DNA from: Yuukianura sp. NJ FZ-2021
Lineage: Eukaryota
NCBI GenBank assembly: GCA_046563655.1
Contig: CM102289.1
Span: 4,402,001 to 4,466,000, forward strand
Direction: 5' to 3'
DNA: 64,000 bases
In this document: in pieces, positions 16,329 to 55,600 of the stretch
Layout: each line of letters opens with the position of its first letter
Numbering within the stretch: position 1 is the first letter of the stretch
Program-made: the position numbers and the translations under genes
Notes under the pieces: model-generated
What the model was told of the DNA's origin: nothing
Databases searched by the model: none
The model's input: only the letters and a program-made list of their open reading frames with translations

Positions 16329-19252
16329 TCAAGAATCAGAATCCTCTTTGTCCCGCTCCCCGCCATTGGCCTCACCCTTATCGTCATTATCCGTACTTAC
16401 AGCGCAGACACTGTCCCCGACATTCTTCTCTTCTGCCACTGTTTCATCCAGGACAGGCTCTTCAATCTTCTCAGGCTCCTTAATATTGGTTTTGTGTTTG
16501 ATTGTATCATCAACCGAGGAAGTGGTATGTTTTCTATCGGAAGTTTTAACTGTAACAGTATCTGCAGTATTGCTCGAGCTTCTATCCCCATCATCCGAAC
16601 TTAACGGTTCATCTCTCAAAGGATCTTGATCTACTAGTGTCGGCGCATCATCTTCCGAAGATTTAATAGTCACCTCGGGATCTTCTGACACGTCGGGCTC
16701 CAATGAAATCTTAGCCATATCCGAACTGCTAATTGAATCCGTCGTCCCATTAGTACACAAGGTGGTATTGATTTCTCCTTTGCCGTTCCGGTTGTCGAGT
16801 TCTTCTGACTCGGAGGGTGCCGGATCTCCAGAATTCAATTGAACACCGCGTTGACGAGAAGACTTGCGAATGGGCTGCATAACCACATGTACTCGTTTTT
16901 GTTGGCGCTTTATCGGAACTTTGGAATCGTCCACAAGTTTATTGAGTTTCGAAGTCATCGAACGGACTGCTGCTCCGCGCTTTTTTCTCCTAACCCCAAA
17001 TAGGCGATTGGCTGTTGGTTTTCGTTTCAATTTGGCGTTTACATCAATTGGCATCGCGTGGTCCATGCTTTCAAAGTCGCTGATCTCCGTGGAATTGTTT
17101 GCAGGACTCTTTTGAGTTGGAGTGCCGGAGCTCTCTTCGCCGATGACTTCCATGTCCCCGTCTGCTGGAATCTGCGCTTGGTCATTGATGTCTGCTGCTA
17201 TTGCCTTGTCCTCATCCATGGCGATCGGAATGGAATCACTTTTCAAGTCTTCTCCTTCCTGGATTTGTTCGTGATCGTTGTGTGCCTCTGCTGTATGCCT
17301 CTCAAGGGAGAGTGCTGAAACAAACGTCTTTTGACAGTTCGTGATAATGCATTTATGCATTTCAATCTCAGCGTTGGGAATAAGGTGAGTGTTGTGAACA
17401 TGTCGTTTGAAGGCTTCTTTGCTGCTAAATCCTTTGCCACAGTTGTTCACGTCGCACTGGTACATTTTGCACTCAGGGTGCGTGTCACTCTCATGACGCA
17501 GAAGACGGTTCCTTGCGGTATAAACCTTCGGACAGTAGGCACATGGAAAGAGTCCTTCTAAAAACAGAAAAAAGAGTTCAGCGTGCTGGTGATTCAATTA
17601 TAACAACTGTGTAATAATAGTGGTACCCACGATTACTCACCTCCATCAAGGCACGGAACAATCACCATGTCTTCGTTTGATTTTAGTGGGCTTAACCCAC
17701 TATTTCGAGTAGGACGCAAGGTAACACTGCTAGAAAACGTTTCCTCGCCTTCACTCTTCGTTTTCCTCACAGGTACAGGTTCCACCGTAGCCACTACATG
17801 TGGCCGCTGTGAAACTTTCAAGACTTTCCTGGGCTCTGCGCTGTCACTAAACCAACGTAAAACGTTTAGTCTACGGGTCCAGTCCAAGTCATGACGTTTA
17901 CTGATATCAATTCAATAGAACTACCATACCTTTCCATTTCGGAAACTTTCCGCTTGCTCTTGATCAAACCTTGTTCTTCATCATTATAGTATACACCACC
18001 TGGAATATGCTGTACGTCGTTCACAAACGATTTGCTGTGTGGAGCAAATCGGTTTGATAGCTTAGGCACCGCAAGTGGAAAACCTACGGATTTCCTTAGA
18101 CCTGAGTTTGAAGGTCTTCCTGGTAAACGACGACGCCCCGCAGTAAGTTTGTTGCACAAAACGTTTCTTCGTTTCTGATCAGAAATAAGTGAGGTTGAGA
18201 ATCGACTTTGGATTCCTCCTTTTACAGTATCGCGAAATCCTTTCTGGGGGGACAAAAGAGGTGGAGCGCATTCCCTTGTAACTAGTTCTGGTTTAATGGT
18301 CGCCATCTGTAGGTCTTTTCTTGGGGATGTGACAGACAGCCTTGCATTTTCTAAGAAACAGAAGAACCATTTAGAAAGAATCGTAACTACGATTAACTGC
18401 GTTCATTAGTTGAGTCAAAGATATCATCTACGAAAAAACTTCAATTTAACGCTTTATAAACTGATTTATACCAAAATCCACTATTCCAAGTTGGTCCTCA
18501 TTCGCAGCAGCGGTGTTGCCTCCGACGAAAATCCGCCTGTTGGTAACATCATTGCAAGAATTCTTCTGCTGGGAGTGACAAATGCAGATGAAGTTGCCGC
18601 AGTTATGTGGCGTTGCACTCCGCTCGGAGGCAATATATTCTAGCCCCATTTTATCTTCGGAATGAACTGGAGCTTTATATTCATCATACGTCATTTTCCA
18701 TTCTATAAAGAAAAAAAACAAATATTAATTATTTCCGGCATATGTAGCTCTGTACTGTCTTCGTCTCTTTAGAATGCGATGAGCTTAACACTGGGATCGA
18801 AGAATTGAATAAGGTAAAATCCTACTGTCATGTATTTGTTGGCGGATGAAGTCAATTGGTCCATCTCTAGAATTCTGGGCGATAGTTTCCACGATAGTGA
18901 ATGCGAGGTCATTTCGGATACTGTTGTACTTGGACCGAATATTCTGAAGTTCAATTTGATAAGCCGCCATTACTGACACTTTAGTGTGGCACTGAGGACA
19001 GAATGGTAGTGATAACACCTCGTCATCGTCGCCGTCACCACCATCAGATTTCAGGGAATTTTCAATATCCAGTGACAAGTAGAAGTTCTTGATCATGTTG
19101 GAATCCCAAACTTCAGAATTAAATTCAAAAGGGGTAAAATTCTTGTAGCAGACGACGCAGCATTGTTGCTTTAACGGCGGTGGTATCTCCTGAAGATGTG
19201 CCAGTCGTGGAATATGATATTGCTGGCGCGGTTGATGTTTGCCCCTCGGCAT
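16329..19252 (-). CDS. ZAD-like (CxxC...CxxC) plus three C2H2 zinc-finger protein with acidic low-complexity tail
   Basis: N-terminal CVVC...LPFCPQC followed by a coiled segment. Fingers CAYCPKVYTARNRLLRHESDTH, CDVNNCGKGFSSKEAFKRHVHNTH and CIITNCQKTFVSALSLERHTAEAH. Five coding exons join in frame. A 5'UTR intron has a donor near 19504 and an acceptor near 19268. Confidence 0.8.
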
Positions 19253-20510: not shown

Positions 20511-20520
20511 GGGGATTATG

Positions 20521-21346
20521 TATTTAGAAAGAGTGATTTTCCTACTAAACTTTTAACTTTTTGGAATTTGGAATTATGTTATTTAGAAAGAGTGATTTTC
20601 CTACTAAACTTTTAACTTTTTGGAATTTGGAATTATGTTATTTAGAAAGAGTGATTTTCCTACTAAACTTTTAACTTTTTGGAATTTGGAATTATGTTAT
20701 TTAGAAAGAGTGATTTTCCTACTAAACTTTTAACTTTTTGGAATTTGGAATTATGTTATTTAGAAAGAGTGATTTTCCTACTAAACTTTTAACTTTTTGG
20801 AATTTGGAATTATGTTATTTAGAAAGAGTGATTTTCCTACTAAACTTTTAACTTTTTGGAATTTGGAATTATGTTATTTAGAAAGAGTGATTTTCCTACT
20901 AAACTTTTAACTTTTTGGAATTTGGAATTATGTTATTTAGAAAGAGTGATTTTCCTACTAAACTTTTAACTTTTTGGAATTTGGAATTATGTTATTTAGA
21001 AAGAGTGATTTTCCTACTAAACTTTTAACTTTTTGGAATTTGGAATTATGTTATTTAGAAAGAGTGATTTTCCTACTAAACTTTTAACTTTTTGGAATTT
21101 GGAATTATGCTATTTAGAAAGAGTGATTTTCCTACTAAACTTTTAACTTTTTGGAATTTGGAATTATGCTATTTAGAAAGAGTGATTTTCCTACTAAACT
21201 TTTAACTTTTTGGAATTTGGAATTATGCTATTTAGAAAGAGTGATTTTCCTACTAAACTTTTAACTTTTTGGAATTTGGAATTATGCTATTTAGAAAGAG
21301 TGATTTTCCTACTAAACTTTTAACCTTTTGGAATTTGGAATTATGC
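20521..21346. repeat. Tandem array of 14 x 59 bp
   Basis: Unit TATTTAGAAAGAGTGATTTTCCTACTAAACTTTTAACTTTTTGGAATTTGGAATTATG(T/C), near-identical copies. A partial 15th unit resumes at 22229 after the MITE. Confidence 0.99.
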
Positions 21347-21348
21347 TA

Positions 21349-22228
21349 CAGTGAATTCTCTAAATAAGGGACAGGAGCTCCTCCTCTTTCTCACTTTCAC
21401 TCGAACTCGCGGTACAGTAAAGTTTTAATTTTGGAGGGAACGTATGTTTCAGTTTATCGGCTTATTTTTTACGATTGTTTTTTTTTGGTTAATTTTTTTT
21501 GGCGCGAAACAAAAGTAGTTAGATAGGTAATATGCGCAACAATATACTGCGCAACAGCGCACAAACTGCGCAACAGCGCACAAACTGCGCAACAGCGCAC
21601 AAACTGCGCAACAGCGCACAAACTGCGCAACAGCGCACAAACTGCGCAACAGCGCACAAACTGCGCAACAGCGCACAAACTGCGCAACAGCGCACAAACT
21701 GCGCAACAGCGCACAAACTGCGCAACAGCGCACAAACTGCGCAACAGCGCACAAACTGCGCAACAGCGCACAAACTGCGCAACAGCGCACAAACTGCGCA
21801 ACAGCGCACAAACTGCGCAACAGCGCACAAACTGCGCAACAGCGCACCAACTGCGCAACAGCGCACCAACTGCGCAACAGCGCACCAACTGCGCAACAGC
21901 GCACCAACTGCGCAACAGCGCACCAACTGCGCAACAGCGCACCAACTGCGCAACAGCGCACCAACTGCGCAACAGCGCACCAACTGCGCAACAGCGCACC
22001 AACTGCGCAACAGCGCACCAACTGCGCAACAGCGCACCAACTGCGCAACAGCGCACCAACTGCGCAACAGCGCACCAACTGCGCAACTGCGCACCAACAG
22101 CGCTACAGCGCACAAACTGCGCAACAGCGCACAAACTGACCGTTTACCAGAAATCTTACGGTACTGGGGGAGGCGCCTACTACCAATCCTCCAATAGTGA
22201 TTTTTTCCCTTATTTAGAGAATCCACTG
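21349..22228. mobile_element. MITE with 23-bp TIRs and TA target duplication (Tc1/mariner/pogo-type ends)
   Basis: CAGTGAATTCTCTAAATAAGGGA (21349-21371) and the reverse complement of 22206-22228 (CAGTGGATTCTCTAAATAAGGGA) differ at 1 base. TA at 21347-21348 and 22229-22230. The host 59-bp unit continues across the insertion. Confidence 0.9.
21546..22138. repeat. Tandem array of about 31 x 19 bp (GC-rich) inside the MITE
   Basis: Unit ACTGCGCAACAGCGCAC(A/C)A. It accounts for the spurious long repetitive ORFs in the ORF track. Confidence 0.99.
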
Positions 22229-22809
22229 TATTTAGAAAGAGTGATTTTCCTAAATACGTGTCTGCGTGGGTGCAAAGGAAGCAGCGCGAAAATTTTAACG
22301 GGTGGGGACAGTTGAACTCGACAATATTCAAATTTGGATTGAATGCCCGTTTCGAATTCACCGACGATTTTGTCGACACTGTTTTTGTTAAGAAAATTTT
22401 AATGCGTTGTTTTGATGTTTGGACATCTGAGACAGTTCGGTGCAACTTTTTAACCAGTGTTCTGCTCGTACAGCAATTTCCAAATGTCAAAACTTGCGAA
22501 TGTTAGGTATGTTTAATTGGGTTAGGTCTAAGTGCTATGTTCGTTTCATTTTGTGTAGTTTGAAAGTTTTCTATATTCACAGGTTCCTCTAGTACATCGT
22601 TGTGTTTAATTTTTATGTAACTTACTTTTATTGTAAAAATGCTTAAGGTACTAGTAGGTAAAGTTGTAAAACTGTATTTTCTAACAATTGGCACTGAGTG
22701 AGGTAGGCACAGTTGTTAAGTTTTTAGTAATTTATGTTTGTTTGTTTTTCACAAAATAACATTAAAATAAATTTTAGCACAGCTTCCGACAACGCATTTG
22801 TTAAATTAC

Positions 22810-22821: not shown

Positions 22822-22904
22822 CGTGGCTAGTAGGATTCGAACCTACGCTCCCAGAGGGAAATAGATTTCTAGTCTATCGCTTTAGACCGCTCAGCCATAG
22901 CCAC
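22822..22904 (-). tRNA. tRNA-Ser(AGA)
   Basis: GTGGCTA/TAGCCAC acceptor stem, discriminator G, D arm GCT..AGC, anticodon arm ATAGA-CTAGAAA-TCTAT, long variable arm CCC-TCT-GGG, T arm GTAGG-TTCGAAT-CCTAC. Confidence 0.95.
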
Positions 22905-31955: not shown

Positions 31956-33650
31956 ATGGCTTTTACTTTCCAAAACTGGAAGTTTTGGCGGTTTTCGGGA
32001 ACACGTTTGAAAAAGTTTGAACCGCTCAGGTGGAAGAGCAGCGATGTGAAGAAAGTAGTGAAGCTAGGAGTTCAAGGAGCGCCGTTTGAACTTGGTCAGG
32101 TACGAAATCGTAGCTTTTAATATTAGTTTTTCTTAGGTTAGAATGCCTTTTAGGCTTTGAAATAAAGCATAGATGCGGCTAACCTCAAAAATCTTTTTGG
32201 TTGAGATGTCTTTTTCGTTTGTTTTGTTTTTGAAAAAAATTTTTTTTCTGTAGACGAAGGAAGGACTGGTGATGGCACCCACTGCTCTCAGGAGTACAGA
32301 ATTTATTGATAGTTTTCGACAAGTGGGTGTGTCTGCAGCACAAAATATACTTTGCTCTTCTTTGATTTTTTTTTTCAAAAAAGCTGTTCAAGTGTTTTTT
32401 TTTCTGTTTGAAGAAAAAATTCTTTAACCTGTTTATAAAGTAACGTTTTGATGATTTTTCAGTGAAGTTGGATGTGAAGGACTATGGAGACATTGACTTT
32501 AGTCAAAAGTGTGCCTTTGCCCTTGAAGGTTCCCATTTTGGGCCCCAGTTGCACCTTCCAAGTCGCAAAACACATCGCCTCAGGGTCACCCCCTCGGTTC
32601 CGACTTTGAGAATGTCGGAAGTTGGCCAAGCAGCTCGCGAAGTAAATAATTAATACAAATTCTGTTAGGCTTTTGGACTCGGATGGAATTTCTAAAATTT
32701 TCAATTTCTTGCCCCGGGAAAATTGACTGCGGATGAATTTATATGGACCAGATTGCGTCCAGGACTGCTTCCATTTTGGAAGATGGCAGATTCCCACTGA
32801 CTCTTGGTGGAGACCACAGCATTTCCATTGGAACTGTGGCTGGCGTGGCTCAGCACTTCCCTGACCTCGGTGTCCTGTGGGTCGACGCCCACTCGGACAT
32901 CAACACCCCTCTGACGACATCTACAGGCAAAATGCACGGCATGCCCGTCGCCTTCCTCCTCAAGGAAATGATTCCGTTTCTGCCTTCATATCCGGAGTTC
33001 TCTTGGCTAGGACCTCCGTAAGCATATTCTCGTTTTTCTTCCGAAAAGTTTTAAGGTTTGCTTTTGACACAAAAAACTGAAACACAAGTTTTTCTAATTT
33101 TAGCTTGCAGGCAAGGCGACTAGTCTACATAGGCCTCCGTGATGTGGAATCATACGAAAAGTAAAAAAAATTGAACAGTTCTGTCAAGATTGTTTTTGTT
33201 TTACTCTACTTTTGGTGTAGGTCTTTTCTGGACTTGTTGGGAATCCGGATGTACTGTATGGCTCAAGTGGACAAGCTAGGTATCAACACTGTCGTAGAGC
33301 TTGCTCTGCAGCATTTAACCGAAGGTGACCCTCTGCGACCTATCCACGTTAGTTTTGACGTAGATGCGTTGGATGACGTGGAAATGCCTTGCACGGGCAC
33401 TCCTGTTCCTGGGGGATTGACCTTGCGCGAGGGAATGACCTTGATGGAACACGTCTTCTCAGAAGCTAACTTTGTGTCCATGGACGTGGTGGAGTTCAAC
33501 CCAGAACTGGGTTCTGCTTTTCAGCTTATCCGTTCTGCAAAAGCAGTGAAGGAACTGATCTTTTCCAGTTTCGGATACGACAGAGGTGGAGTGGCCGTTT
33601 TAGACAAACATGGCAACCCTACTGCTCCATTGCCCAAACCTAGAGCTTAA
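31956..33650 (+). CDS. arg: Arginase (ureohydrolase family), 6 exons, possible mitochondrial presequence
   Basis: [70 protein letters not shown] and DVVEFNP. All Mn-ligand motifs are intact. Confidence 0.95.
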
Positions 33651-43600: not shown

Positions 43601-46600
43601 AATTATAATTACAATTCGTTGTAAATTCATACCGGTTAGGTTCGTTCAGCTTCTCTGACGATCGTGATTGGCCTTTCCCCAGCGTATCCGAGTCGTCACG
43701 AGTGATCTTAATTTCTTGCGTGCGACGTCGCTCGTCTTCTCTCTTCCTCTCCTCAGTAATTCTAAGAACTTCTTTGCGTTTTATGGATTCAACTCGTTCC
43801 TTCTCAGCTCGCTTCGCTTCCTCTCGTTTGGCATCCTCCTCTTTCTTACGCTGATTCATAAAAGCATTTTCAATTAGGGTGGTCCTCTTCAGAGCTTCTA
43901 ATTTTTCTGATTGAGCATCAATTGTCTTTTCAAAATCATCGTGTTGGCGAATTAGTTCCTCAACTTCAGCAATTGAATCTCCTAGAGCTGGATCCCGAAT
44001 TATTGGTTCGCGTGTTGAGAGCCAAGAATCCAAATGAGAAAGATCTCGAAGGAAAATTTGGCAGTCGAGGTTCTGTTCATAGATTTCCTTTCGAGTTTCA
44101 CACATCTTTCTCAAAAAGTCCCAGCGCTGATTCAAAAGTTCTACTTTTTCTTCTATTTCGTCTGCTAAGAAATGACCTTCCCGAATCAACGTTTTTCCTG
44201 TAGTAGAGAAAGTGTCGAATGTCTCTTCTCTGGCATCAATTTCCTTTTGATATTCTCGGTGGCGAAATATGAGTGCCTCGGCTCCAGCAACATCTTTGGC
44301 CAGCTCCGGTGCTGACACCTTTGCAATGGTTTCGTTTACCCAGGCAAGTAGTTCTCTGTAAGTGCCAAAGTATGCTTGAAGTTGTTCCGCCTGCTGCAGT
44401 TTGTCGCGCCTGACTGCTGCCCTCTCCAAGAGATCGTTCCATGACTCTACTGTATCTTCATGTTTCACTTCAATATGCTCTCGGGCATCTGGAAACAATT
44501 CGGCCAGCCTCTTCGCTTCTGTAACAACTGCTTCAACCTGATCCTTGACTGCAGCCAAATCGCGCTCAAACGCTTGATGTTTTCTAACTAGCGCCTGGAT
44601 GCTCTCTAGGTCATGTCCATAATCTTCCGTACTGATTGCCGCGTCTTTTTCTGTTATCCAACCAATTGTTTCGTCGGCTGTCCGGTCAAACATATGAACC
44701 TAAAACAGGAAGTAAGTAATTAATGTATTTTTATAATAAAACATGAAATGTTTATAACACTAACCTGCTTGGCCCCAGCTAGAGCCTCTTGCCGAGCGCT
44801 TGCCAACTCCTTGAACTCTTCCCACATTTGTTGAATTTCCTTGATTTTGTTCGTAACTTTCTCAGGTTCCGGATGTCCCTCATCCAGTAAATCTTCAGAT
44901 AATAGAATAACGATTAATTTTGAAGGATTAAAGTGAAAAAAACTAGTTACTATTTGTATCAAATGGTGAGCTAGAGCTAACCTTTTCCGGCATGATGGAC
45001 TCCAGCAATTCGATTCTCTCCGGCGTTATTCATAGTTACCACAAAGGCCTCAAACTTTTGAATAAGAATTTCCACATGTTCAACATCTCTTCCGTAGTCT
45101 TCGGAGCCAGCAGTGTTCATCTAAAAATGAAACAAAACATTATACATTAGATTCAATCGATTAAAGCTAATCCTAAATCCAAATTGAACTGATTATAGTA
45201 CGTACGGAATCTTGAATCCATTCGCCAACTTCGTCAGATTCCCGGAGAAATCTGAAAAGCTTTTTGGCATCCTTGAGTCGCTGCTTTCGTTTATCGCTAA
45301 GTTTTTGCAATTCGATAAATTTTTCCTTAGCTTCAGCAAAAACTTTAGAGATATTTTCAGAGTCAAAATGGTTTCGTTCGACAAGTTCCTGGCTAGTAGA
45401 TTGTAGTTTTTGGATCCTCTTCTCAAATGCTGCCAGATCCCGTTCCAATACCTCCAGTTTCTTCAGAAGTCCTTCAACAGAATCTTCATCTTTCCCGTAA
45501 TCAGTCGACGCAAAGTACGGACGTTTCTCGACCATCCATGTTTCCGCCTCGGTTGTCTCGGCATAGAAAGATTGTGAGTGGAAAGCATCCGTTAAGAGCA
45601 GTTTTCGTTGTTCTGCTTCTTCCTTCAGTTTGGACATTTGCTGTTGCATAACACCCACTTTGGCAGAAACTTGCTCCGATGCAAAGTGATTTGATCGGAT
45701 CATTTGGTGTCCTCGCGTTGTCAAACTCTGTACAAATGGTTCATGAGTTTGTATTTCCGATTCCAGTGCTTGGTGTTTCTTCAAAAGACTTTGAACATTG
45801 GCAAGAGAGCTGCCCAAATCCTTGGAACAGGCTAGCGGTTCCTTTTCGTTGAGCCACTGAACTTCATCGTCTAAATCACGCAAAAACTGATACAACTTCA
45901 GTGCGTCTTCCAGATTTTCTTTCCTAATATGCATTGGCTCTTGGAGGAGATTGTATCGCTTCACAATTGAATCCACTCTGGTTTGAATTTCATCCGACAG
46001 AAAATGATTTGCAGCCTGAAACGCCTTGGCAGATTCTTTGATTTGTGTTATTTGGTCAGAATGATTTGTAAAATCTCGGTCCAGTTGCTGCCACTTCTTG
46101 AGGAGATGTTGAACAGTAGCTAAATCTTTGCCATGATCTTCTGACTCTAGTTGTTGCTCCATATCATCAATCCATTCTTCCAAATCATCCAAGTTTTGAT
46201 GAAACAAAAGAGACTGATAGGCTTCTTGAAGGCGATCCCGCTTAAGAGCAGAAGCGTCATGAAGTTGTCTCCACAAACTACGAATGTCGAACAGTCTGGC
46301 CAAAATTTCTTCGGCAGCGAAATGCTCCTTTTCTCCCGACAGCAGAATTTCTCCTTCTTCATTTATAGCGGTGACCCGACTTTCATTCGCTGCTAACTCA
46401 GAATCAAATGCTTGTTGTTTCTGTATCTTGCTCTGCAAATTTGTTCCGTCACGATAGTTTTCATCTCCAGCAAGTTGCATCTTCTCCAACACCCATCCTT
46501 CCACTTCATGAGCATTTCTTAGGAATTGGTAAAACGCCTTCGATGCTAACAATTTTGAGTGTCTTAGCGCTGACGCCTTCTTCACCCGGCGTTGTGATGA

Positions 46601-49600
46601 CTCAATTCCCTTAATGCGATTTCGAATGCTGTCACTGGAGTAATGGCCAGAGTTGAGGAGACTATTGCCAAACTTCTTAAGGTCTTCAACTCTCCCAAGC
46701 TGAACGTCCATTGTATTTTCAAATTCAGCGTGCTTTCGAATTAGCGTCTCTACGGCTGAAGTGGAGTCTCCCAAATCAGAGTTGTTCAGAAAAGCTTCTT
46801 TGTCACGAATAACAGAATCAGCCTCGTCGGCCATACTGTTGAACAGTTGAAGTTTGTGGGCTTGTTTTAGTTTGTTCTCTCTCTGGGTACAACTGTCATT
46901 CAACTTTGTTTTCAGCGCCGCCAAATCTTTCACGATTTGAATTAATTCTGATTCGGCTGAATGCCCTTCCTTGATCAATCGATTTCCAAATGCAGTCAAG
47001 TACTCAAAATTGTTCTGCCTCCCGAAGATTTCTGCTTTGCGTTCTTCATGTAACTGAAGTAGAGCTTCCGCTTCGACTGTAGTTTTCGGTAACTCTCCTG
47101 AGTCCATTTTCCCAAGCATGTCTTCTGCCCAAATCTCAAGGTCTCTAACTTCTTTCAAAAACTTTTGAAAAGTGTGTGATTCCGTAAGAACGTTACGTCG
47201 ACTCAAGCAGGCATCACTTAGAGCACCCCATCGCTCTTGTAAGGATTTCAGCTTCTCTTTCAAAGATTTAGCAGACTCTGGATATTTTCGACTTAACTTC
47301 TCTTCTTCCTCCGTCAAGTCCATTATTTTCTGACTAATTGCGCTTACATCACGATCAAGAGTTTCTTGTTTTCGAATAAGGAGTTCCACAGACATCAAAT
47401 CCTTTCCAGTATCCTCAGATGCTAGCAACAAAATCTTCTCGTTAATTCTCTCCTTTGTGTCATCCGTGTCTCTAAAGAAGGCATGTATTTCCAAAGCTCC
47501 TGAAAGCGTTCCACGGTATTTGTTCAAGGCTCCCGCCAAATCCTTCCATTTCGCATTGAGTCTATTTCTCCGTTCATCAATCGCGTCGCATGTGGCATTA
47601 TGTTCTTTCTTCGGATGTTGACCCAGTAGTTTTTCTGTCAAAGTATTAATGTGCTTAATCCTTTGGTCATCCACCCGCATATCAGAGTTGACGTCGTCCA
47701 ACTTCTTTTGGATTTCTAGACAATGCTCATAGTCTCTTCCAACATCTCCAGCTCCTACTAGCAACTCTTTTTCGCGAATCCAAGCTTCAACTTTCTCGAC
47801 CTGATTGTTTAAGTCCAGTATTCCTTGAGCCTCTTCAAGTCCTTTTCCACATTCATTGGACTCTTTCAAAAGAGTATTCCAGTTCTTTACAAGCTTCTGA
47901 AGTTGGTTGTCAATTTCCTCCGATTTTTCAGGGTTTTTATGTTTCAACTGAGCTCCATTGTCCAAAATGTGCTGGATCCTTGAACGATTTGCTTCCAGTT
48001 CGGCTTCAAATGCTTGGTGTTTCTTCAATTTCTTGATTTTTGATTCCAAATCGACAACAGCAGCTTGTGATGCTTCATAGTCCAATTTCTTTTTCTTCTC
48101 GTCAATCCACAATTCGGCTTCAGCCACATCCCGTAAAAACTGGACATAAAATAGCGTCACGGCAAGCCGGTCCCGTTTCTTTTTCGACATTGCTTGAACA
48201 TTGTTTCGGTGATTCACGACTTCTTCAATCCTTGCCTTTACTTTTGCTGACTCAAAGTGATTTTGTCGTACGAGTTTATTCCCATGCTCTTCCAGGAGAC
48301 TGAACTTTTCTTTCTGTGTAGCAAGTAACTTCTCAAAAGCATCATGTTTCTTAACAGAAGCATCAACTTCTTCAACAGTATTTCCAATATCAGGGTTCGA
48401 CAGTGTTAGTTCTTGCCCACTGCAAATGGAATCTAACTGTTTTGCATCTCGGAGGAAGAGTTGGAGATCAATAAGTTGATCCAAGTAGATTTTCTTCTTT
48501 TCCCAAGCCAATAGAAGTTTCTCCTTCTCTCTGAACAAAATGTCCAGCTTATCTCGTACTTCCGCTGATGCTGAATGCCCATCTGCTATCATTCGATTTC
48601 CAAGCTTTTTGGCTGACTCGAAATTTTCTACCCGAGCTTCAATTTCACTGTTATGTCGCTCGTGTTCAGTCATCAAGTTCTGAGCTCCTTGGATGTTTCT
48701 CACTTGGTCATGAGTTACAAGCGTAGCTTGTAGATTTGTTGCCCAATTCATGAGATCTCTAACCTGTTAGACCATAATGTTCTATGTAAAATATTTCACA
48801 TGTCAATTTTTCATGTTTCCAAAATATTACCATTGAAGAAAAACGATGAAAGTCACAAGCAGCTTCCAGCTCATCCTTCTTATTAGCTGCACGACTCTGT
48901 AGTTCGTTCCAACTGTCGACCACAGCGCTTTGCTCAGTCATGATGTTCTCTGCATTTGTTGGGTACACGGTTTGTAATTTTTCGGCGTCTTCAACCAATA
49001 CCTTAATGACATTCCAAACGACGCGTTACAAAATGTTGACAAATCAAAGATTTTTTTCGTTTTGAAGTTTACCTGAAGCTGGGCTTCAAGTGCTAACAAG
49101 TCATTCTCGAATGCTTCATGGAGACGCAGCATACCCTCACATGCGTTAACATCACGTCCGACACCTTCCGGGATGAACGAAACCTTCTCCTGAATACGCG
49201 CAAGTGCATCAGCTACATCTCGATGAAACCGATGTATCTCCCCTGCTCCATGAAGCTTAATGTCACGGGCCTCAATATGTCCAAGCAAGTTTTGCCACTT
49301 CACACTATAAAAACATCAACAATCACATATCTCACTACATTAAAGTTAAACTAAGGCGATTGCGGCTTCACAGGCTACTTTTTATAGTAGTGTAGCCATC
49401 GATAGCGAGACACACCGTCACCACAAGGGTTATGTACTAAATAAAAATTAGAGTAAGATACTAATTCGCTTATTGCTAGCTTACCAAACAGCGTCATGCT
49501 TCAGTGCAACTAATTCTGGGATATCATCACTACAAAATAAGAAAGCAAACGAAATAGTAGTTGTTAATATTAATTACTACTAGAAGTAAGAACCAAAACC

Positions 49601-52600
49601 ACCAAGCCAAAAAACAGGATTAATGCAAAACACGTTGAAGCAAATTCACAAACAGAAATCAGAAAAAACTTACTGGAGGTTGGTGATTCCATCATGTACT
49701 GCCTCAGCGTGCATGTTATTACTTGAGATAAGTTTCTTGGCGAGTTCGTCCAGGAGCTTGAAGCGTTCCGAATTGGCATCCACTCGAAGTTTGAAGTCAT
49801 TGAATTTGGAATGAAGGATCTAAATTTCAATCACACAAAACTTGTTAAAGTGAAAAAAGAATCAATAGTTGGCCAGTTCAAAATTGTACCAATAAATGCT
49901 CGTAATCTTGACCGTAATCATCTGATCTAGCAGTTTGCAGCTGATCGTCAATCCATTTCTCAAAATCTTCTGCTTCAAGGAAGTACTCATGTCGCTGCAT
50001 ACTTTCCATAAGTTTTCGTCGTCTTTCATTAGCCGCTTGCTTCAAGTTCTTCATCTGTTGAACTATGGCTTCCTGCTTGTTGTTGATTATTTTGGAATCA
50101 GGATGCTTGGCATTCACCATTCCTTGAGCCATGTTACCCATCTCTTTGACAAGACCATTGTAAGAGTCCATTTCCAGCTCCAACGACTAAAATTTACATT
50201 TACATGTATTTAGAACGTTCAAAATCCACGCGTGTGAAAATCTTACTCTTTTATGAACTGACCTTATGTTTTGTTAGAAACTTCACCGAGGCATCTTTGT
50301 CTTTCCCGTAATCTGTTGAAGAGAGTAGACTATTCTTTTCGTTCATCCAAGCTTCGACTTCAGACGATTCGTTGAAGAATTGTTGCGCCTTCAACGCAAG
50401 TTCTAGCCGTTTATTCCTATCTTCCGTTGCTTTTTCCAGTTCTTCCCAGGCTTTCTTCAATTTCTTGCATTGGTCCTTGACCTGAAAGCATAAGACGAGC
50501 ATAATCAATTGGGCAATTCCTAAAACTTAGAATCATTTCATTCATACATTGTCTTTTTGCGGGTGCTGCTTTTCGACAAGTTCCTCTCCTTTAGTAAATG
50601 TCTTCTTAATCATCGGTGCGTGTCCAGCAATTTCGCCTTCCAATTTCTTATGTTTCTTGAAGAGGCTTTGAGCTTGGTGCAAATCTTGTGGTAATGCGTC
50701 GGATGAAACAGCCGTTAGTCGTTCTTTGATCCAATGCATTTGTGCATCAACTTCAAAAGTGAAGTCGAAATACTGAAGTGCCTCTTCAAGGTTCTTCCTT
50801 CTCCTTGCTGCGGGACCTTTCAACTCATTGAGCCTCTCTTGACATTCTTTGCTTTGTTTCACAATATTCGGGGCATCAAAATGTCCATCCGATCCTGAAA
50901 AAGTAGTCAAAATTTGATTAAAGGTGATGCACAGTCATAACTTTTTTTAGGTATAGTTAGTTACTTACCCATTTCTTCTCCGAGATTTACAAGATCTTCA
51001 ATTTTAATATCCCATTGAATGATGTCCGCTTCAAGAAGTTGGTGCCTTTGGAGCATCTCTTTACAGGCTCTACGATCCGATCCTTCTTCCTTCGACCGTA
51101 GAACATTTCCCATCTCGTCCAACTTTTCTCGAACGCTTTCCAATCGCTTGTAGTAAGTATGCTGGGCTTCAGCTTGTCGCAATTTGTTCCCTTTCTCGTC
51201 AGACTGTACACGAAGGTTAGCCCAAGCCTCATTCAGCTTCTCCAGCATGTCTTCAATTTCATCTTTCCTGTAGTTATCATTGTCTTGAATCAGTTTCAAA
51301 CCAGCTCGATTGATTGAACGCAGTCGAATTTCATTTGCTCGTAATTCTCCGGCGAAAGCTTCGTGCTTTTGTAACTTTCGCTCGAGATTTGTTAATTCTT
51401 TGTATGACTCATCAGAAGCAGTGGCTGTTTTGTCTCCAATCCACTCCATCATGTCATCAACGTCTGTCTTGAACTCGTGATATTTAAGTGATGTTCCAAG
51501 TGCTGCTTTTCTTGCTTTCGAGCGGTTCTTGACTGCTTGTCGTTTAGCCAAAACTTGATCTCTTCTGTCCTCGATGTTCTTGCTATCGAAATGCTTAGCA
51601 TCAATAAGTTTTGAAGCCATTTCACTAAAAGCCTTCAGTCTCTCATCCTGAGCAACCAGTGTATTTTCAAAATCATTGTGTCTCTTCAGAAGGCCCTCAA
51701 CTTCATCCAAACCATTTCCCAAATTTTCAAAGTCAAGGAATGCATGATGACCTGCCGTGGCAGTGTCAATGTGATCCGCTTCATGGATAAATGCTTGCAA
51801 CTCTCGTACTTGTTGTAGCCAATTTCCTTTTTCTTGCCATCCACGATGGAGCATTGTTCTGGCTGCTTTGAGATCCTCAATTCTATCAGCCACTTCAGAA
51901 GAATTTGGAGTTCGATGTAAGATACTAGCTCCTAGTTCAATAACCTCATTGAATTCATCTTCATGTGCTCTGATGTCATCTCCAAGGTCAGAATGCTTCT
52001 TTAGTAGAGCCTCGGCCATTGACACGTCTTTTGCCGGTTCATGTGCTTTGAGAGTCTCCTTCGTATCGCCTACCCAGCTTAGCAAAGATTTTGAGCTGTG
52101 CATAAAAATTTGTTGTCCGACTGCCTCCTCGAGACGAGCTCTGCGATCAATTGCCTTTGCCTTGAGCTTCTCCCACAGCTCATGGATTTCAGCGAGACGA
52201 TTGTTGACATTTTGTTTTTCATGAGGATAAGACTCTTTGACAGCGGCGCCTAACAACTTTACACGGCTCACTTTCTCTTCAATCGGAGATACTTCACGCT
52301 CCAAGTTTTGATGGCGACGCTGAAGGGCTTGAACTGTTTTCAAGTCTTGTCCCATGTCATCCGTGTCAATTTGCCTCATCTTTTCTATCACCCAGTCTCG
52401 AGCCTCATCGCACGTTCTGAAACACATATTTCATTGTACATAATTTTTTCTCCCGGATATTGCACAAAACTTGCAGAAAGTTACCGATTGAAGAGTTCGA
52501 CACTAGAAGCTCCTTCCAGAGACCGTTCTTTTGTACTTTTCAACTGGTTGAGGTTATCGTACAATTGGTGAATGTGTTTTTGTCGTTCTCGTACTTTGTC

Positions 52601-55600
52601 CATTTGTGAATGACCCGCCTTGACAAATGCTTCCACAGTCTTATCGATTTGTTCAATTCGCTTAGAACTAGCGGATAGATCAGTCAAGAATTTCTGAAAG
52701 ATAAAAACGCAATGAAAATTTAATTGAGCAAATTCCGTATAAAATAAAACACCAATTTCGCCTTTTGCTAACCTCAAATTTTCGTTTGGCACTTTCCACA
52801 TTGTCATCTGGATCGTCGTTTTGGAGCATTTTTTCCTTGTCTATAACCAAAACAATAGTGAAAATCAATTACAACATCAGCGTTTTTGCTTATATTAGTT
52901 ATTTGAATTAAAAAATGTACAAACAATTAAATTGAATTTATAGCAACAGATTGAAAATTGAACATATTAATGATTATATTCTTAACGAAAAATTACTAAC
53001 CTCGAATCCATTTCTCAAAGTCGTTACATTCCTTGTAAAATGCAAACAAACGGATAGCGTCTTCCAAGTAAGCATGTCGTTTCTGCAACAAAAACATAAT
53101 ATTCATTTTTTAAAAATAATAATTTGACGATTTGAGAGGCATCTGATCAAATCCGAGGAAATGCTGAAACGTTCTAGGTACTATTTAGAATTAGCATAAT
53201 TTTAGCGTCTTATTTTTCTGGATAACTCTAAATCCAATCCAATAGTTTCAGTTTCTATCACAACTGAACGGAACAACGCAGTTGGCACAAATCAGCAAAT
53301 CACAAACAATTAACAGAATTCACGCAGATTGCGAAGTTGAAGTAACTTCGCGACTCAAACAAATCGAATACTTTGTTTGCAAAATTCGATCGAGGGGAAA
53401 GTAGGAAAATGGTGGGCCAAATGGCTGGATTAAAAGCTGTCCAGAAGCTTACGACTTTTGAAATATCCCCAAAAGTTGTATTGACGGGAATGGGAATGGG
53501 CTTGGGCGTGGCATTTCTCTCAGAAAAAAAGGTGAATTTGGACACAAAACTTGCCAAAAAGAAACTAGCGAAGGCGTTTTCGGCCGATTCAATTGCAGCT
53601 GGGTAACCAGAAATATACTTCATCTCGTTATACAAAAAATAAAAGAATTTTAGAATCCCATTGATTTTTTTTTCTACAGATTTCAAACAGTACTTCCTGA
53701 CCCCGAGATTCGAAAAATAGTGGTCATCAATACTGCGCAGAGTTGAAATCGTAACTTTCAAAAAGCCCTTCACTAGGAGCTGATGTTCATACCGCACCGA
53801 CCGCCCTCCCACCAGTTTCAACAATCGAATATCTCGAACCCAATTAATCATAAATCCTCAAACGAAATTCAAAATCACAGGCTTGTAAGTTCACAACGAA
53901 AAACGCAATAAAATTTTTGTGTAAACTTTTCAAATGAATGTAAACATTCAACTCACCTTGGCGGAGACGACTATGTCGTGATACCCAGTATTCACTCTGG
54001 TAAGCCGTTTCTCGACAGGTTCGTTTTCCTCCGCTGAACGCTTTCCACCGCGCACTGCAAACAAAATCAGTAAATATGTCAATGTCAATATTCTGAGTAA
54101 TCACCACTTCTAACTTCCTAATCAAAAACAATCTTAAAGACAACTTACTCGCTGGTTTTGGACTCTTGGTTTTCTTCACCATTGCGTTCTGCAACACCAT
54201 CTTTGTCTTTTTGACTCTGCGAACCTCTCGTACAATCTCAGGCTTACGGGCTTGGACTTGAACAACTTTGGGCTCAATTTCTTTCACATAATTTGCTGGA
54301 ACAAACCCGTCGTTTCCATTCGCTTGACGCACGTTCCACCAATCATTGTTCGTCTTGTTCAGAAGAAACATTACCTACAACAACAAAAATCAATGTTAAT
54401 TCTGTAAAATACTCTCCAGCGATTCCGATTACCTCTCCTTTCTTAATGTCAATATCCTGCCCCTGAAATTGATAGAGCGCCTTCACTTGTGGTACTGATC
54501 GTTCTTCCGTGACTGTTTTATATTCTGTTCGCTCTACAGGCTCTTCTTCCCAATATTCTTGTGGGATAAGTTTTTGCTCCTGGACCCATTCTTCCTCTGC
54601 TGGAGGTTCAGGTTCCTGCGTCTATTGTTTAAAAAAAATATTTCAAATGAAAAAATCAATTAAACTAGGCAAAAGTTTTAAAACAGTTGAGCATACCTCT
54701 AATGTTGAAATGCCCAAACGAATCAACTTCTCTGCCTGAGCATTCAGCGCCTTGATGTCACCTTCGTACGCAGTTATTTCACTTTGTAATGCCTTGTGTC
54801 TCTGTAGTAATGCTTGGGCGCTGGGCTCATCTTCTCCATAGTCAACGGAAGTAACTAATGGCTTCTTCTCATGGAGCCACGAGTCTGCTTCATTAGCATC
54901 AGCATAGAACTGAAAAATCACAAGACCAAAACGTTGTATTCAAGTGCCACTGATTAACATTTACGGGAAAACTTACTTGGTAAGCTTCTGCCGCATCTTT
55001 CAACTTTTTCTCCTTCACCATTGCCAAATCCTGAAGAGTTTTCCAATGTTTCGTCAAACTTTCTATTCGCTGCTGGATATCTTTGGACTCTGGTGGATTT
55101 GCTGACAGTAGTTCTTGACCCGCTTCAATAATTTTATGTGACTTTGGTAACCTGGCTTTCATTTCATCTGCTACTGCTTTGTGTTTCTGCTGAAGACTGA
55201 TGACTGCCCGTAAGTCCTTAGCTGAAATCCCTGAATTACATATTCGTTGCTTCTCAATAAGCCACGCCTCCTCTTCTTCATGGTCTTGAACAAATTGGAA
55301 AAAACTGCGGGCATCTTCTAATTTACTCCTTCTCTCGGCACTCATTTTGAGCAACTTTTTGTACTCCTCTCCCAATTTCTCTAGTTGCGTCTTTAGAGCT
55401 GCACTTTCACGTAATTCCGAAGTGACGTATTGGGCACCCTGACGATTCAGTCGCTTCAGGGTCTCTCCCATCGATGCGATTTGAGATTCCAGAAGACTGT
55501 GTTTCTGGAGAAGGTCTTCAACCGCTAGAAGATGGTGCCCAACGTCATTTGATAGAAAGTTTTCCTCTAATTCATGGATTGTGCTGCTCATTGTGTCAAT

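What the first reader, a model, noticed from the sequence alone, without database searches (positions are those of the whole stretch)
53248..53912. Candidate hidden gene nested antisense in a beta-H spectrin intron: 86-aa single-TM microprotein
Seen: the kst intron at about 53085-53957 is far longer than its neighbours. On the opposite strand it holds a full transcription-unit signature: TCAGTT initiator (about 53248), ATG 53409, GG|GTAACC donor, a 77-nt intron ending in a T-tract-CTACAG acceptor, stop at 53744-53746 and AATAAA at 53907. Product: [86 protein letters not shown]. Inference: a Gly-rich (GxxxG-containing) hydrophobic segment followed by a Lys-rich helix resembles small mitochondrial or organellar membrane proteins. 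I do not recognise the family.
Basis: partly seen in the sequence, partly recalled or inferred. Interest (0 to 1): 0.7.

Follow-up and report, generated by a model that had tools for sequence, protein, structure and literature searches.

The report
Conserved small gene inside spectrin intron
A long intron of the beta-heavy spectrin gene holds, on the opposite strand, a two-exon gene for a roughly 86-residue glycine-zipper protein that a distant relative has kept intact, so it is very probably a real, unannotated small-protein gene of an ordinary kind.

Summary
A metagenome scan with a nearby kst exon returned two relatives, L001 and L002.

L001 carries the same gene in the orthologous intron, on the same strand. 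It has a start codon, a phase-2 GT..AG intron at the homologous codon, a second exon with a conserved PDPEIR motif, and a stop within 2 codons. Synonymous sites of kst are saturated between the two genomes (pS 0.77). Even so:
- 35 of 81 aligned residues are identical.
- dN/dS is 0.27.
- All 3 indels in the coding sequence are multiples of three.
- Mismatches fall 34/24/47 on codon positions 1/2/3.

L002 has an ORF of the same build at the same place, but its sequence similarity is not significant.

No transcript data could be obtained. No homologue was found in Pfam, 5.8 billion proteins or 1.84 billion representatives. One feature-based search pointed to Mic10 (score 0.87, a lead only).

Verdict: a real nested microprotein gene. 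A membrane or mitochondrial role is inferred, not shown. Interest is moderate.

The parts
53086..53956 (-). Host intron of the beta-heavy spectrin (kst) gene, 871 nt. It is bounded by AAG|GTGAGT on the 53956 side and by ..TTGCAG|AAACG on the 53086 side, both read on the minus strand.
   Evidence: The sequence is. The flanking exons carry Spectrin and SH3 Pfam hits and align to beta-H spectrins. The orthologous intron in L001 is 1673-2467, 795 nt.
53248..53253 (+). TCAGTT initiator-like motif, the putative transcription start.
   Evidence: Present. It lies 161 nt before the ATG. L001 has TCAGTT 159 nt and 89 nt before its ATG. L002 has none. Shared upstream k-mers are not significant: 2 shared 9-mers against 0.88 expected, and 119 of 500 shuffles reach that count.
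53254..53408 (+). Putative 5' UTR, free of ATG.
   Evidence: There are 0 ATG in the 161 nt from 53248 (2.6 expected). The corresponding 159 nt of L001 also have 0 ATG (3.1 expected).
53409..53602 (+). Coding exon 1 (64 codons plus 2 nt). It encodes an N-terminal basic segment, a GxGxGxG hydrophobic helix and a Lys-rich segment. A second in-frame ATG lies at 53421.
   Evidence: Translation is. It is homologous to L001 2216-2026 on the minus strand. Gaps in a frame-agnostic nucleotide alignment are 3 and 6 nt. It is the only one of six frames without stops in both genomes and has the most identical residues, 24 of 64.
53603..53679 (+). Intron of the nested gene, 77 nt, phase 2 (GG|GTAACC ... T-run CTACAG|A).
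   Evidence: Sequence. The homologous L001 intron (2025-1934, 92 nt) has the best-scoring GT of 44 and the best AG of 49 on that strand in its host intron. Gap lengths here are 5, 3 and 7 nt, not all multiples of three.
53680..53746 (+). Coding exon 2 (1 nt plus 21 codons plus TGA). It holds the conserved PDPEIR..IV.IN motif.
   Evidence: Translation is. Of 20 codons, 11 are identical to L001, with pN/pS 0.30 and no stop in either genome. Nucleotide identity is 0.67. The exon-2 frame has no ATG of its own in either genome, so it can only be translated after splicing.
53747..53912 (+). Putative 3' UTR ending in AATAAA (53907-53912), 44 nt before the upstream kst exon.
   Evidence: Sequence. AATAAA begins 161 nt after the stop. 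L001 has ATTAAA at 1694-1689 on the same strand, 175 nt after its stop (my arithmetic) and 16 nt from the kst exon. Identity to L001 is 0.42 of aligned columns, which is no more than background.
53303..53857 (-). 185-codon stop-free frame antisense to the nested gene, in kst orientation. I judge it a by-product, not an exon.
   Evidence: Listed. No Pfam hit at E<=10. In L001 the longest kst-sense ORF overlapping the nested CDS is 44 aa. In exon 1 this frame shares third codon positions with the nested frame (my arithmetic) and has a stop in L001.
53002..53085 (-). kst exon just downstream (in kst sense) of the host intron.
   Evidence: tblastx gives 96% identity over 28 residues to L001 2465-2548. 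Nucleotide identity is 0.84.
53957..54060 (-). kst exon just upstream (in kst sense) of the host intron.
   Evidence: Aligned to L001 1569-1672. Nucleotide identity is 0.68.

Best explanation
This is a real protein-coding gene nested in an intron of the beta-heavy spectrin gene and transcribed from the opposite strand.

Proposed course:
1. Transcription starts near the TCAGTT initiator at 53248.
2. The first AUG of the transcript (53409, or the in-frame 53421) opens the reading frame.
3. One 77-nt phase-2 intron is removed.
4. Translation ends at TGA 53744-53746.
5. The RNA is cleaved after AATAAA (53907), just short of the next kst exon.

The product has about 86 residues. It has a basic N-terminal segment, one hydrophobic helix with a GxGxGxG glycine zipper, a Lys-rich helix and a short conserved C-terminal PDPEIR..IV.IN motif.

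What is shown: the sequence features, and conservation of the ORF, the intron position and phase, and the stop codon, with a coding-type substitution pattern in a relative whose synonymous sites are saturated.

What is inferred:
- That it is transcribed and translated.
- That the glycine-zipper helix sits in a membrane and packs against like helices, either its own copies or a partner's. I put this at about 0.4.
- That the membrane is the mitochondrial inner membrane, Mic10-like. I put this at about 0.25.

The confidence below is for the claim that this is a functional protein-coding gene.
For: 1. Orthologue in place. A scan with the 489-residue kst exon matched 22 stretches, of which 2 encode a relative (L001, L002). 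In L001 the orthologous intron (1673-2467) holds, on the same strand, the following:
- ATG at 2216.
- Exon 1 running to 2026 (phase 2, GG|GTAAGA).
- A 92-nt intron.
- Exon 2 ending in TGA at 1872-1870.

2. Protein similarity. 35 of 81 aligned residues are identical. The local score is 160, against 26 +/- 4.9 for shuffles; 0 of 2000 and 0 of 3000 shuffles reach it.

3. Neutral sites are saturated. For kst between the window and L001, pS is 0.774 and pN 0.114 over 484 codons. Retained similarity in an intron therefore needs selection.

4. Coding-type substitutions.
- Nei-Gojobori on 81 codons gives pS 0.672, pN 0.346 and dN/dS 0.27. Fisher p is 1.6e-5.
- In a frame-agnostic MAFFT nucleotide alignment, mismatches by codon position are 34, 24 and 47 of 85 each (chi-square p 0.0016).
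- The gaps inside the CDS are 3, 6 and 3 nt. Outside it they are 54, 13, 3, 1, 24, 5, 3, 7, 4, 3 and 6 nt.

5. Frame control. The proposed frame is the only one of six without stops in both genomes in exon 1. It has the most identical residues (24 of 64 in exon 1, 11 of 20 in exon 2) and the lowest pN/pS (0.66 and 0.30).

6. Splicing.
- The window acceptor is the best of 43 AG sites and the donor second of 31 GT sites.
- In L001 the homologous donor and acceptor are the best of 44 GT and 49 AG sites.
- Exon 2 has no ATG of its own.

7. Intrinsic coding signal. Codon log-odds trained on 3218 kst codons are positive only in the proposed frame: window 0.169, L001 0.126, L002 0.254. Of 74 non-coding ORFs of 50 codons or more, 0, 1 and 0 respectively reach these scores.

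8. ATG-free leaders in the window and L001.

9. Not a repeat. The host intron has no second copy in the window; the next best hits are 12-33 nt at E>=0.16. There is no paralogue in the window, L001 or L002.

10. For the functional guess.
- GxGxGxG lies at residues 27-33 in the window and 24-30 in L001.
- A feature search with the L001 protein ranks PF04418 (Mic10) clusters first: score 0.87; 174, 169 and 184 of 256 features shared; recognition 2908.
Against: - The coding signature rests on one informative pair, the window against L001.
- L002's ORF is not demonstrably homologous by sequence. 144 of 3000 shuffles reach its score against the window and 43 of 3000 against L001. A two-sequence HMM gives it E=16 among 2615 ORFs.
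- In exon 1 the antisense frame that shares third positions is a close second: 21 of 61 residues identical, pN/pS 0.76 against 0.66, with one stop in L001.
- The protein-guided alignment used for dN/dS favours the proposed frame.
- Promoter conservation is not significant, and the 3' UTR is not conserved (0.42).
- The donor GTAACC is only middling.
- No homologue exists in Pfam, in 5.8 billion proteins by word search (only the two metagenome ORFs themselves), or in 1.84 billion representatives by phmmer.
- Against the functional guess:
  - Hydrophobicity is borderline.
  - The AlphaFold2 model of exon 1 has low confidence (mean pLDDT 56.8).
  - The Atlas search with the window's own protein gave only 0.76 with recognition 1427.
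  - A score of 0.87 is by the tool's own statement a lead only.
Confidence: 0.82

Rival explanations
1. The region is a conserved non-coding element, such as an antisense lncRNA or a regulatory element of kst. It happens to be open in one frame, and no protein is made.
For: No transcript or peptide evidence was obtained. The flanks of the ORF, the promoter and the 3' UTR are not measurably conserved. No protein homologue exists outside the two metagenome contigs.
Against: A non-coding element does not predict any of the following:
- Gaps of 3, 6 and 3 nt.
- The excess of third-position mismatches (p 0.0016).
- pN well below pS (Fisher p 1.6e-5).
- An open frame with the same phase-2 intron and a stop at the same place in a genome whose neutral sites are saturated.
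- Codon usage that matches the host's coding exons in that frame only.
Confidence: 0.07
2. Only exon 1 is translated. The RNA is not spliced, and the product is the 65-residue protein that ends at the TAA formed by the GTAA of the supposed donor.
For: The frame stops at GGG TAA in the window, and likewise in L001, where GGGTAAG is read. The window donor is only middling at 5.7 bits.
Against: Exon 2 is the best conserved part: 0.67 nucleotide identity, 11 of 20 residues identical and pN/pS 0.30. It has no ATG of its own. The donor and acceptor are the top sites in L001, and the acceptor is the top site in the window.
Confidence: 0.05
3. The constrained reading is on the kst strand. The 185-codon open frame 53857-53303 would be an alternative or cassette exon of kst.
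For: It is a long stop-free frame in AT-rich sequence. In exon 1 it shares third positions with the nested frame and scores second in the frame control.
Against: In L001 no kst-sense ORF over the region exceeds 44 aa, and that frame has a stop. In L002 the long kst-sense ORF (111 aa) lies in a different relative frame (my arithmetic). There is no Pfam hit. Codon log-odds are negative in all three antisense frames.
Confidence: 0.02
4. It is a chance ORF, a decaying pseudogene, or a fragment of a mobile element.
For: ORFs of this size occur by chance in introns. There is no known family.
Against: It has no second copy in the window. It is kept at the same place in a relative with saturated neutral sites and intact in frame. 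dN/dS is 0.27. It has an intron, so it is not a retrocopy.
Confidence: 0.04

Closest known systems
MIC10 / MINOS1 (Pfam PF04418, DUF543), core subunit of the mitochondrial MICOS complex
   Same: It is a small protein of 70-100 residues. It has a GxGxGxG glycine motif in a hydrophobic helix, followed by A and an aromatic residue. In MIC10 this motif drives oligomerisation (passages of PMC10803214 read). PF04418 clusters are the first hits of the feature search with the L001 protein.
   Different: MIC10 has two transmembrane segments in a hairpin, each with a glycine motif, and conserved cysteines in animals. This protein has one hydrophobic segment and no cysteine in any of the three versions. 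The PF04418 model does not match at E<=10.
The 'longer smORF' class of Drosophila (about 80 residues, rich in transmembrane helices, several located at mitochondria)
   Same: Its size (86/84/86 residues) matches, its conservation is like that of canonical proteins, and it has a hydrophobic helix. [quoted passage not shown]
   Different: That class is defined by measured translation in Drosophila cells. Here there is no translation evidence, the organism is not a sampled insect, and there is no sequence relation to any annotated smORF.
Genes nested in introns of larger host genes on the opposite strand (common in arthropod genomes; recalled, no call)
   Same: It lies wholly inside one host intron, on the opposite strand, with its own start motif, intron and poly(A) signal. 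The arrangement is kept in a relative.
   Different: Nothing unusual for the class. The particular features are the small size of the product, and a 3' end that abuts the host exon: 44 nt in the window and 16 nt in L001.

Membership tests
MIC10 (PF04418) | Match to the curated family model | tested here: not met
   There is no Pfam family at E<=1 or E<=10 for the exon-1 products of the window, L001 and L002. HMMER's filters drop most matches above about 0.1, so a very weak likeness is not excluded.
MIC10 (PF04418) | Length of about 70-100 residues | tested here: met
   The spliced readings are 86, 84 and 86 residues. The range comes from PMC10803214.
MIC10 (PF04418) | Two transmembrane segments forming a hairpin | tested here: not met
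   There is one glycine-rich hydrophobic segment, and the best 19-residue Kyte-Doolittle means are 1.49, 1.18 and 1.96. The AlphaFold2 model of exon 1 has helices 3-15, 21-39 and 49-56 at mean pLDDT 56.8. By my reading of the sequence, only the second helix is hydrophobic.
MIC10 (PF04418) | Conserved GxGxGxG motif in a membrane helix | tested here: met
   Gly lies at 27, 29, 31 and 33 in the window and at 24, 26, 28 and 30 in L001. L002 has Gly at 21, 23, 25 and at 29, 31, 33.
MIC10 (PF04418) | Conserved cysteines of animal MIC10 | tested here: not met
   There are 0 Cys in all three products. The feature is as described in PMC10803214.
MIC10 (PF04418) | Mitochondrial inner-membrane location and association with MICOS | not testable with these tools
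   This needs tagging, fractionation or co-purification.
Translated 'longer smORF' class | ORF under 100 codons with protein-like conservation | tested here: met
   The ORF has 86 codons. dN/dS is 0.27 against L001 while kst synonymous sites are saturated.
Translated 'longer smORF' class | Evidence of translation (ribosome profiling, tagging or peptides) | not testable with these tools
   No reads could be laid on the region, and no proteomic data are at hand.
Nested intronic gene with its own transcription unit | Lies wholly within one intron of the host, with its own exon-intron structure | tested here: met
   All parts lie within 53248-53912, inside intron 53086-53956. The same holds in L001.
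Nested intronic gene with its own transcription unit | Own promoter and poly(A) site in use | tested here: inconclusive
   TCAGTT and AATAAA/ATTAAA are present in the window and L001, and both leaders are ATG-free. Upstream conservation is not significant, and there are no RNA data.
Short-chain dehydrogenase (Rossmann TGxxxGxG) | Full dinucleotide-binding domain of about 250 residues | tested here: not met
   The only likeness is a weak profile hit to the N-terminus of an SDR chain (5ig2_A, E 0.084), beside an equally weak unrelated hit (1vmk_A, E 0.12). The product has 86 residues and its stop is conserved.

The most novel reading that the evidence does not exclude
The gene encodes a one-helix 'half-Mic10'. 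This would be a lineage-specific protein that carries only the GxGxGxG oligomerisation helix. It would insert into the mitochondrial inner membrane and cap or tune Mic10/MICOS (or another glycine-zipper) oligomers. It has been held inside the same spectrin intron over a divergence at which synonymous sites are saturated, which would also couple its transcription to that of its host in antisense.
Probability: 0.1. Interest if true: 0.6.

Novelty: new member of a known kind. Interest (0 to 1): 0.4.

Why it matters
Small genes like this are routinely missed by annotation, and the two metagenome ORFs carry no name. This case shows that an 86-codon gene read off raw sequence can be confirmed by synteny alone, even when neutral sites are saturated.

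It adds a small glycine-zipper protein family from an animal lineage with no close annotated relative; its kst is at most 53% identical to any database protein. If the Mic10-like lead holds, it would give a natural single-helix variant with which to study how GxGxGxG helices assemble.

Otherwise it is an ordinary nested microprotein gene.

Tried and rejected
- **RNA evidence.** No RNA holder was listed for window 52400-54700, so no reads could be laid. This is no evidence either way.
- **Whole genome.** None is held for this window.
- **Earlier findings.** Nothing by place, by sequence or by relatives.
- **Rfam.** No match at E<=1 in 52900-54100. At gathering scores the only match in the whole window is one tRNA.
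- **Protein searches with exon 1.** No Pfam hit. No word-sharing candidate among 5.8 billion proteins. No phmmer hit at E<=0.001 among 1.84 billion representatives.
- **Profile search.** A search with the three-sequence alignment found only the two metagenome ORFs themselves.
- **Protein Data Bank profile search.** Two weak, unrelated hits at E 0.084 and 0.12. I took them as noise from the glycine-rich stretch.
- **AlphaFold2 of exon 1** with the 3-row alignment. Mean pLDDT was 56.8, too low for a fold search, so none was run.
- **PF04418 against L001 and L002** through the genome search. The records are not held.
- **The same scan with the single protein.** It gave one locus, L003, in a bacterial MAG.
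  - It is a Mur-ligase (FolC-type) protein that shares a 9-residue string seeded by the exact search pattern.
  - The L001 protein has no alignment to it at E<=100.
  - I rejected it as chance.
- **Self-association of the glycine-zipper helix** (complex prediction, 4 copies). The job was never accepted because the queue was full, so there is no result.
- **Literature on a nested gene in a karst / beta-heavy spectrin intron.** One search returned one irrelevant paper. That is the only basis for saying none was found.
- **L002 as a sequence homologue.** Not supported. I kept it only as a positional and architectural match.
Full report
**Observation**

- TCAGTT at 53248-53253.
- ATG at 53409.
- GG|GTAACC after 53602.
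- A 77-nt intron ending in a T-run and CTACAG at 53679.
- TGA at 53744-53746.
- AATAAA at 53907-53912.

Exon 1 read straight through stops at once (GGG TAA), giving 65 residues. Exon 2 in its own frame gives 21 residues and the stop. A second in-frame ATG lies at 53421.

**Host gene**

The host gene runs on the minus strand from about 61640 to about 41000. Its exons carry Spectrin and SH3 domains, and its best database matches are full-length beta-heavy spectrins.

The host intron is 53086-53956, 871 nt. I modelled 19 further kst introns with a guide protein. The 20 lengths are 58, 65, 67, 67, 68, 70, 71, 74, 76, 79, 85, 89, 104, 137, 143, 160, 525, 871, 1706 and 1775 nt. The host intron is therefore much longer than its immediate neighbours, but it is not the longest in the gene.

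**Organism**

The largest kst exon (1197 residues) is at most 52% identical to any of the 120 listed full-length spectrins: insects 46-52%, decapods 49-51%, spiders 48-49%.

In a quick FastTree of 28 rows the window has a long end branch (0.7). It falls outside the well-supported insect clade, and no starred set holds it. The host is thus an animal, probably an arthropod or near one, with no close annotated relative in the databases used. It is not demonstrably a fly. This matters because the absence of database homologues for a short, fast-evolving protein then says little.

**Intrinsic signals**

A splice matrix from the 20 kst introns gives these results:
- The proposed acceptor scores 11.8 bits. 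It is the best of 43 AG sites on the + strand of the host intron and above all 20 kst acceptors in leave-one-out scoring.
- The donor scores 5.7 bits. It is second of 31 GT sites, and 6 of 20 kst donors score lower.

The 77-nt length lies in the modal class of kst introns. No ATG occurs in the 161 nt from TCAGTT to the start codon (2.6 expected).

Codon log-odds learned from 3218 kst codons against off-frame codons are +0.169 per codon in the proposed frame and -0.36 to -0.58 in the other five. None of 74 stop-free non-coding ORFs of 50 codons or more from long introns and intergenic parts of the window reaches +0.169; their mean is -0.159 and their maximum 0.164.

The host intron has no second copy in the window. 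Rfam finds nothing in it.

**Relatives**

A metagenome scan with the 489-residue kst exon, which lies 1 kb away, matched 22 stretches. Two of them encode a relative: L001 (14,657 nt) and L002 (2,668 nt). blastn and tblastx map the flanking kst exons and place the orthologous intron at L001 1673-2467, 795 nt.

On the strand opposite to kst, L001 has the following:
- An ATG at 2216.
- A 191-nt exon ending GG|GTAAGA.
- A 92-nt intron ending in TAG|A.
- A 64-nt second exon ending in TGA at 1872-1870.

The intron interrupts the same glycine codon in the same phase as in the window. The homologous donor and acceptor are the top-scoring GT of 44 and AG of 49 on that strand of the L001 intron, scored with the matrix built from the window.

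L001 has TCAGTT 159 and 89 nt before its ATG, no ATG in the 159-nt leader (3.1 expected), and ATTAAA 16 nt from the kst exon.

**Is the conservation of the coding kind?**

Between the window and L001, kst itself has pS 0.774 and pN 0.114 over 484 codons, with 383 residues identical. Synonymous sites are saturated, so unconstrained intron sequence should not be alignable. Indeed, outside the ORF the aligned identity is 0.42-0.52, which I take as background.

The evidence for a coding signature is as follows:
- The two spliced products share 35 of 81 aligned residues. The local score is 160 against 26 +/- 4.9 for shuffles; 0 of 2000 and 0 of 3000 reach it.
- Nei-Gojobori counts on the 81 codons give S 58.2, N 184.8, 39.1 synonymous and 63.9 non-synonymous differences. 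That yields pS 0.672, pN 0.346 and dN/dS 0.27. Fisher p is 1.6e-5.
- A MAFFT alignment of the whole intron, made without regard to frame, has gaps of 3, 6 and 3 nt inside the CDS. Elsewhere the gaps are 54, 13, 3, 1, 24, 5, 3, 7, 4, 3 and 6 nt.
- In that same alignment, mismatches fall at codon positions 1, 2 and 3 in 34, 24 and 47 of 85 columns each (chi-square p 0.0016).
- In a six-frame control on that alignment, the proposed frame is the only one without stops in both genomes in exon 1. It has the most identical residues (24 of 64 in exon 1, 11 of 20 in exon 2) and the lowest pN/pS (0.66 and 0.30).

The runner-up in exon 1 is the antisense frame that shares third positions: 21 of 61 identical, pN/pS 0.76, with one stop in L001. 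That script stopped with an error after the tenth of twelve rows.

Exon 2 is the best conserved part (0.67 nucleotide identity) and has no ATG of its own in either genome. This argues that the intron is really removed.

**L002**

L002 is the more distant relative: kst pN is 0.207 against 0.114 for L001. In the same intron and on the same strand it has these features:
- A 60-codon ORF from an ATG.
- A glycine-rich hydrophobic segment at the same distance from the start.
- A phase-2 CG|GTAGGT donor, second of 32 GT sites.
- An acceptor, second of 33 AG sites, that would add 26 residues, for 86 in all.

Its codon log-odds are positive only in that frame (+0.254; 0 of 74 controls reach it).

Its sequence similarity is not significant, however. 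144 of 3000 shuffles reach its score against the window and 43 of 3000 against L001. A two-sequence HMM gives it E=16 among 2615 ORFs. Its alignment to the others is also ambiguous around a PEPE motif that lies before, not after, its donor. I count L002 as a positional and architectural match only.

**The antisense open frame**

The window has a 185-codon stop-free frame on the kst strand over the whole nested gene, 53857-53303. It has no Pfam hit.

In L001 no kst-sense ORF over the nested CDS exceeds 44 aa. L002's 111-aa kst-sense ORF is in another relative frame (my arithmetic). All antisense frames have negative codon log-odds. I take it as a by-product of the nested gene's composition.

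**What the protein may do**

The three products have 86, 84 and 86 residues, 11-12 Lys+Arg, 6-9 Asp+Glu and no Cys. Gly lies at every second position over seven residues: 27-33 in the window and 24-30 in L001.

The hydrophobic segment is short. The best 19-residue Kyte-Doolittle mean is 1.49 (window), 1.18 (L001, on another segment) and 1.96 (L002). A membrane span is therefore plausible but not secure. AlphaFold2 on exon 1 with the three-row alignment gives three helices (3-15, 21-39, 49-56) at mean pLDDT 56.8, which is too low to use further.

Searches for relatives gave the following:
- No Pfam model matches.
- The PDB profile search gives only two weak, unrelated hits.
- The Atlas feature search with the window's exon 1 gave nothing useful (best 0.76, recognition 1427).
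- The Atlas search with the L001 protein, restricted to named clusters, put three PF04418 (Mic10) clusters first at 0.87, sharing 174, 169 and 184 of 256 features, with recognition 2908. Other small mitochondrial inner-membrane families followed at 0.79-0.82. The tool rates such scores as leads only.

According to passages of PMC10803214, MIC10 has 70-100 residues, two transmembrane segments in a hairpin, a GxxxG or GxGxGxG motif in the first segment, a conserved GxGxGxG in the second that mediates oligomerisation, and conserved cysteines in animals. The present protein shares the size and the motif. It lacks the second membrane segment, the cysteines and a match to the model.

I therefore do not file it as a Mic10. 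I keep 'works like the Mic10 oligomerisation helix' as the leading but weak functional guess. The homo-oligomer prediction that might have borne on this never ran because the queue was full.

**Comparison and novelty**

Genes nested in introns on the opposite strand are common in arthropods (recalled, no call). So are roughly 80-residue smORF proteins with hydrophobic helices, several of them mitochondrial; the abstract and passages of PMC4359375 were read.

What is new is this particular family. Its only members in the collections searched are the window and two unnamed metagenome ORFs. One literature search for a nested gene in a karst / beta-heavy spectrin intron found nothing relevant.

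I rate it a new member of a known kind. Confidence that it is a functional protein-coding gene is 0.82, and interest is moderate (0.4).

Noticed in passing
window 53303-53857 (-): A 185-codon stop-free frame runs antisense to the nested gene, in kst orientation. It has no Pfam hit. It is not kept in L001, where the longest such ORF is 44 aa. I judge it a by-product.
   Followed up: yes
window 52841-53000 (-) versus L001 2547-2549: The 160-nt kst intron just downstream of the host intron has no counterpart in L001, where the two exons are contiguous. This is an intron gain or loss between relatives, right next to the conserved long intron.
   Followed up: partly
window 20515-21345 and 21546-22138: There are two near-perfect tandem arrays: a 59-nt unit x 14.1 copies at 99% matches, and a 19-nt unit x 31.2 copies at 98%. 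The second explains why 21449-22502 is open in six frames.
   Followed up: partly
window 22822-22904 (-): A tRNA-Ser gene with anticodon AGA is the only Rfam match at gathering score in the window.
   Followed up: no
window 5848-6315 (+), 10767-13436 (+), 16332-17597 (-), 33165-33647 (+): Exons of other ordinary genes were seen by Pfam: an ANF_receptor fragment; MMR_HSR1 and AARP2CN, which I read as a Bms1/Tsr1-type ribosome-biogenesis GTPase; C2H2 zinc fingers; and arginase.
   Followed up: no
window 45176-48766 (-): The host's beta-heavy spectrin is at most 52-53% identical to any listed database protein. It sits on a long branch outside the insect clade in a quick tree. The genome belongs to a poorly sampled animal lineage.
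   Followed up: partly
L003 1614-3011 (+): A bacterial Mur-ligase (FolC-type) protein shares a 9-residue identical string with the N-terminal part of the window's product. It was seeded by the exact search pattern and is not shared by L001, so I take it as chance.
   Followed up: yes
L002 254-290 (-): In L002 a PEPE motif like the PDPE of the other two lies before its donor site, not after it. Either the intron position differs or the likeness is accidental.
   Followed up: partly
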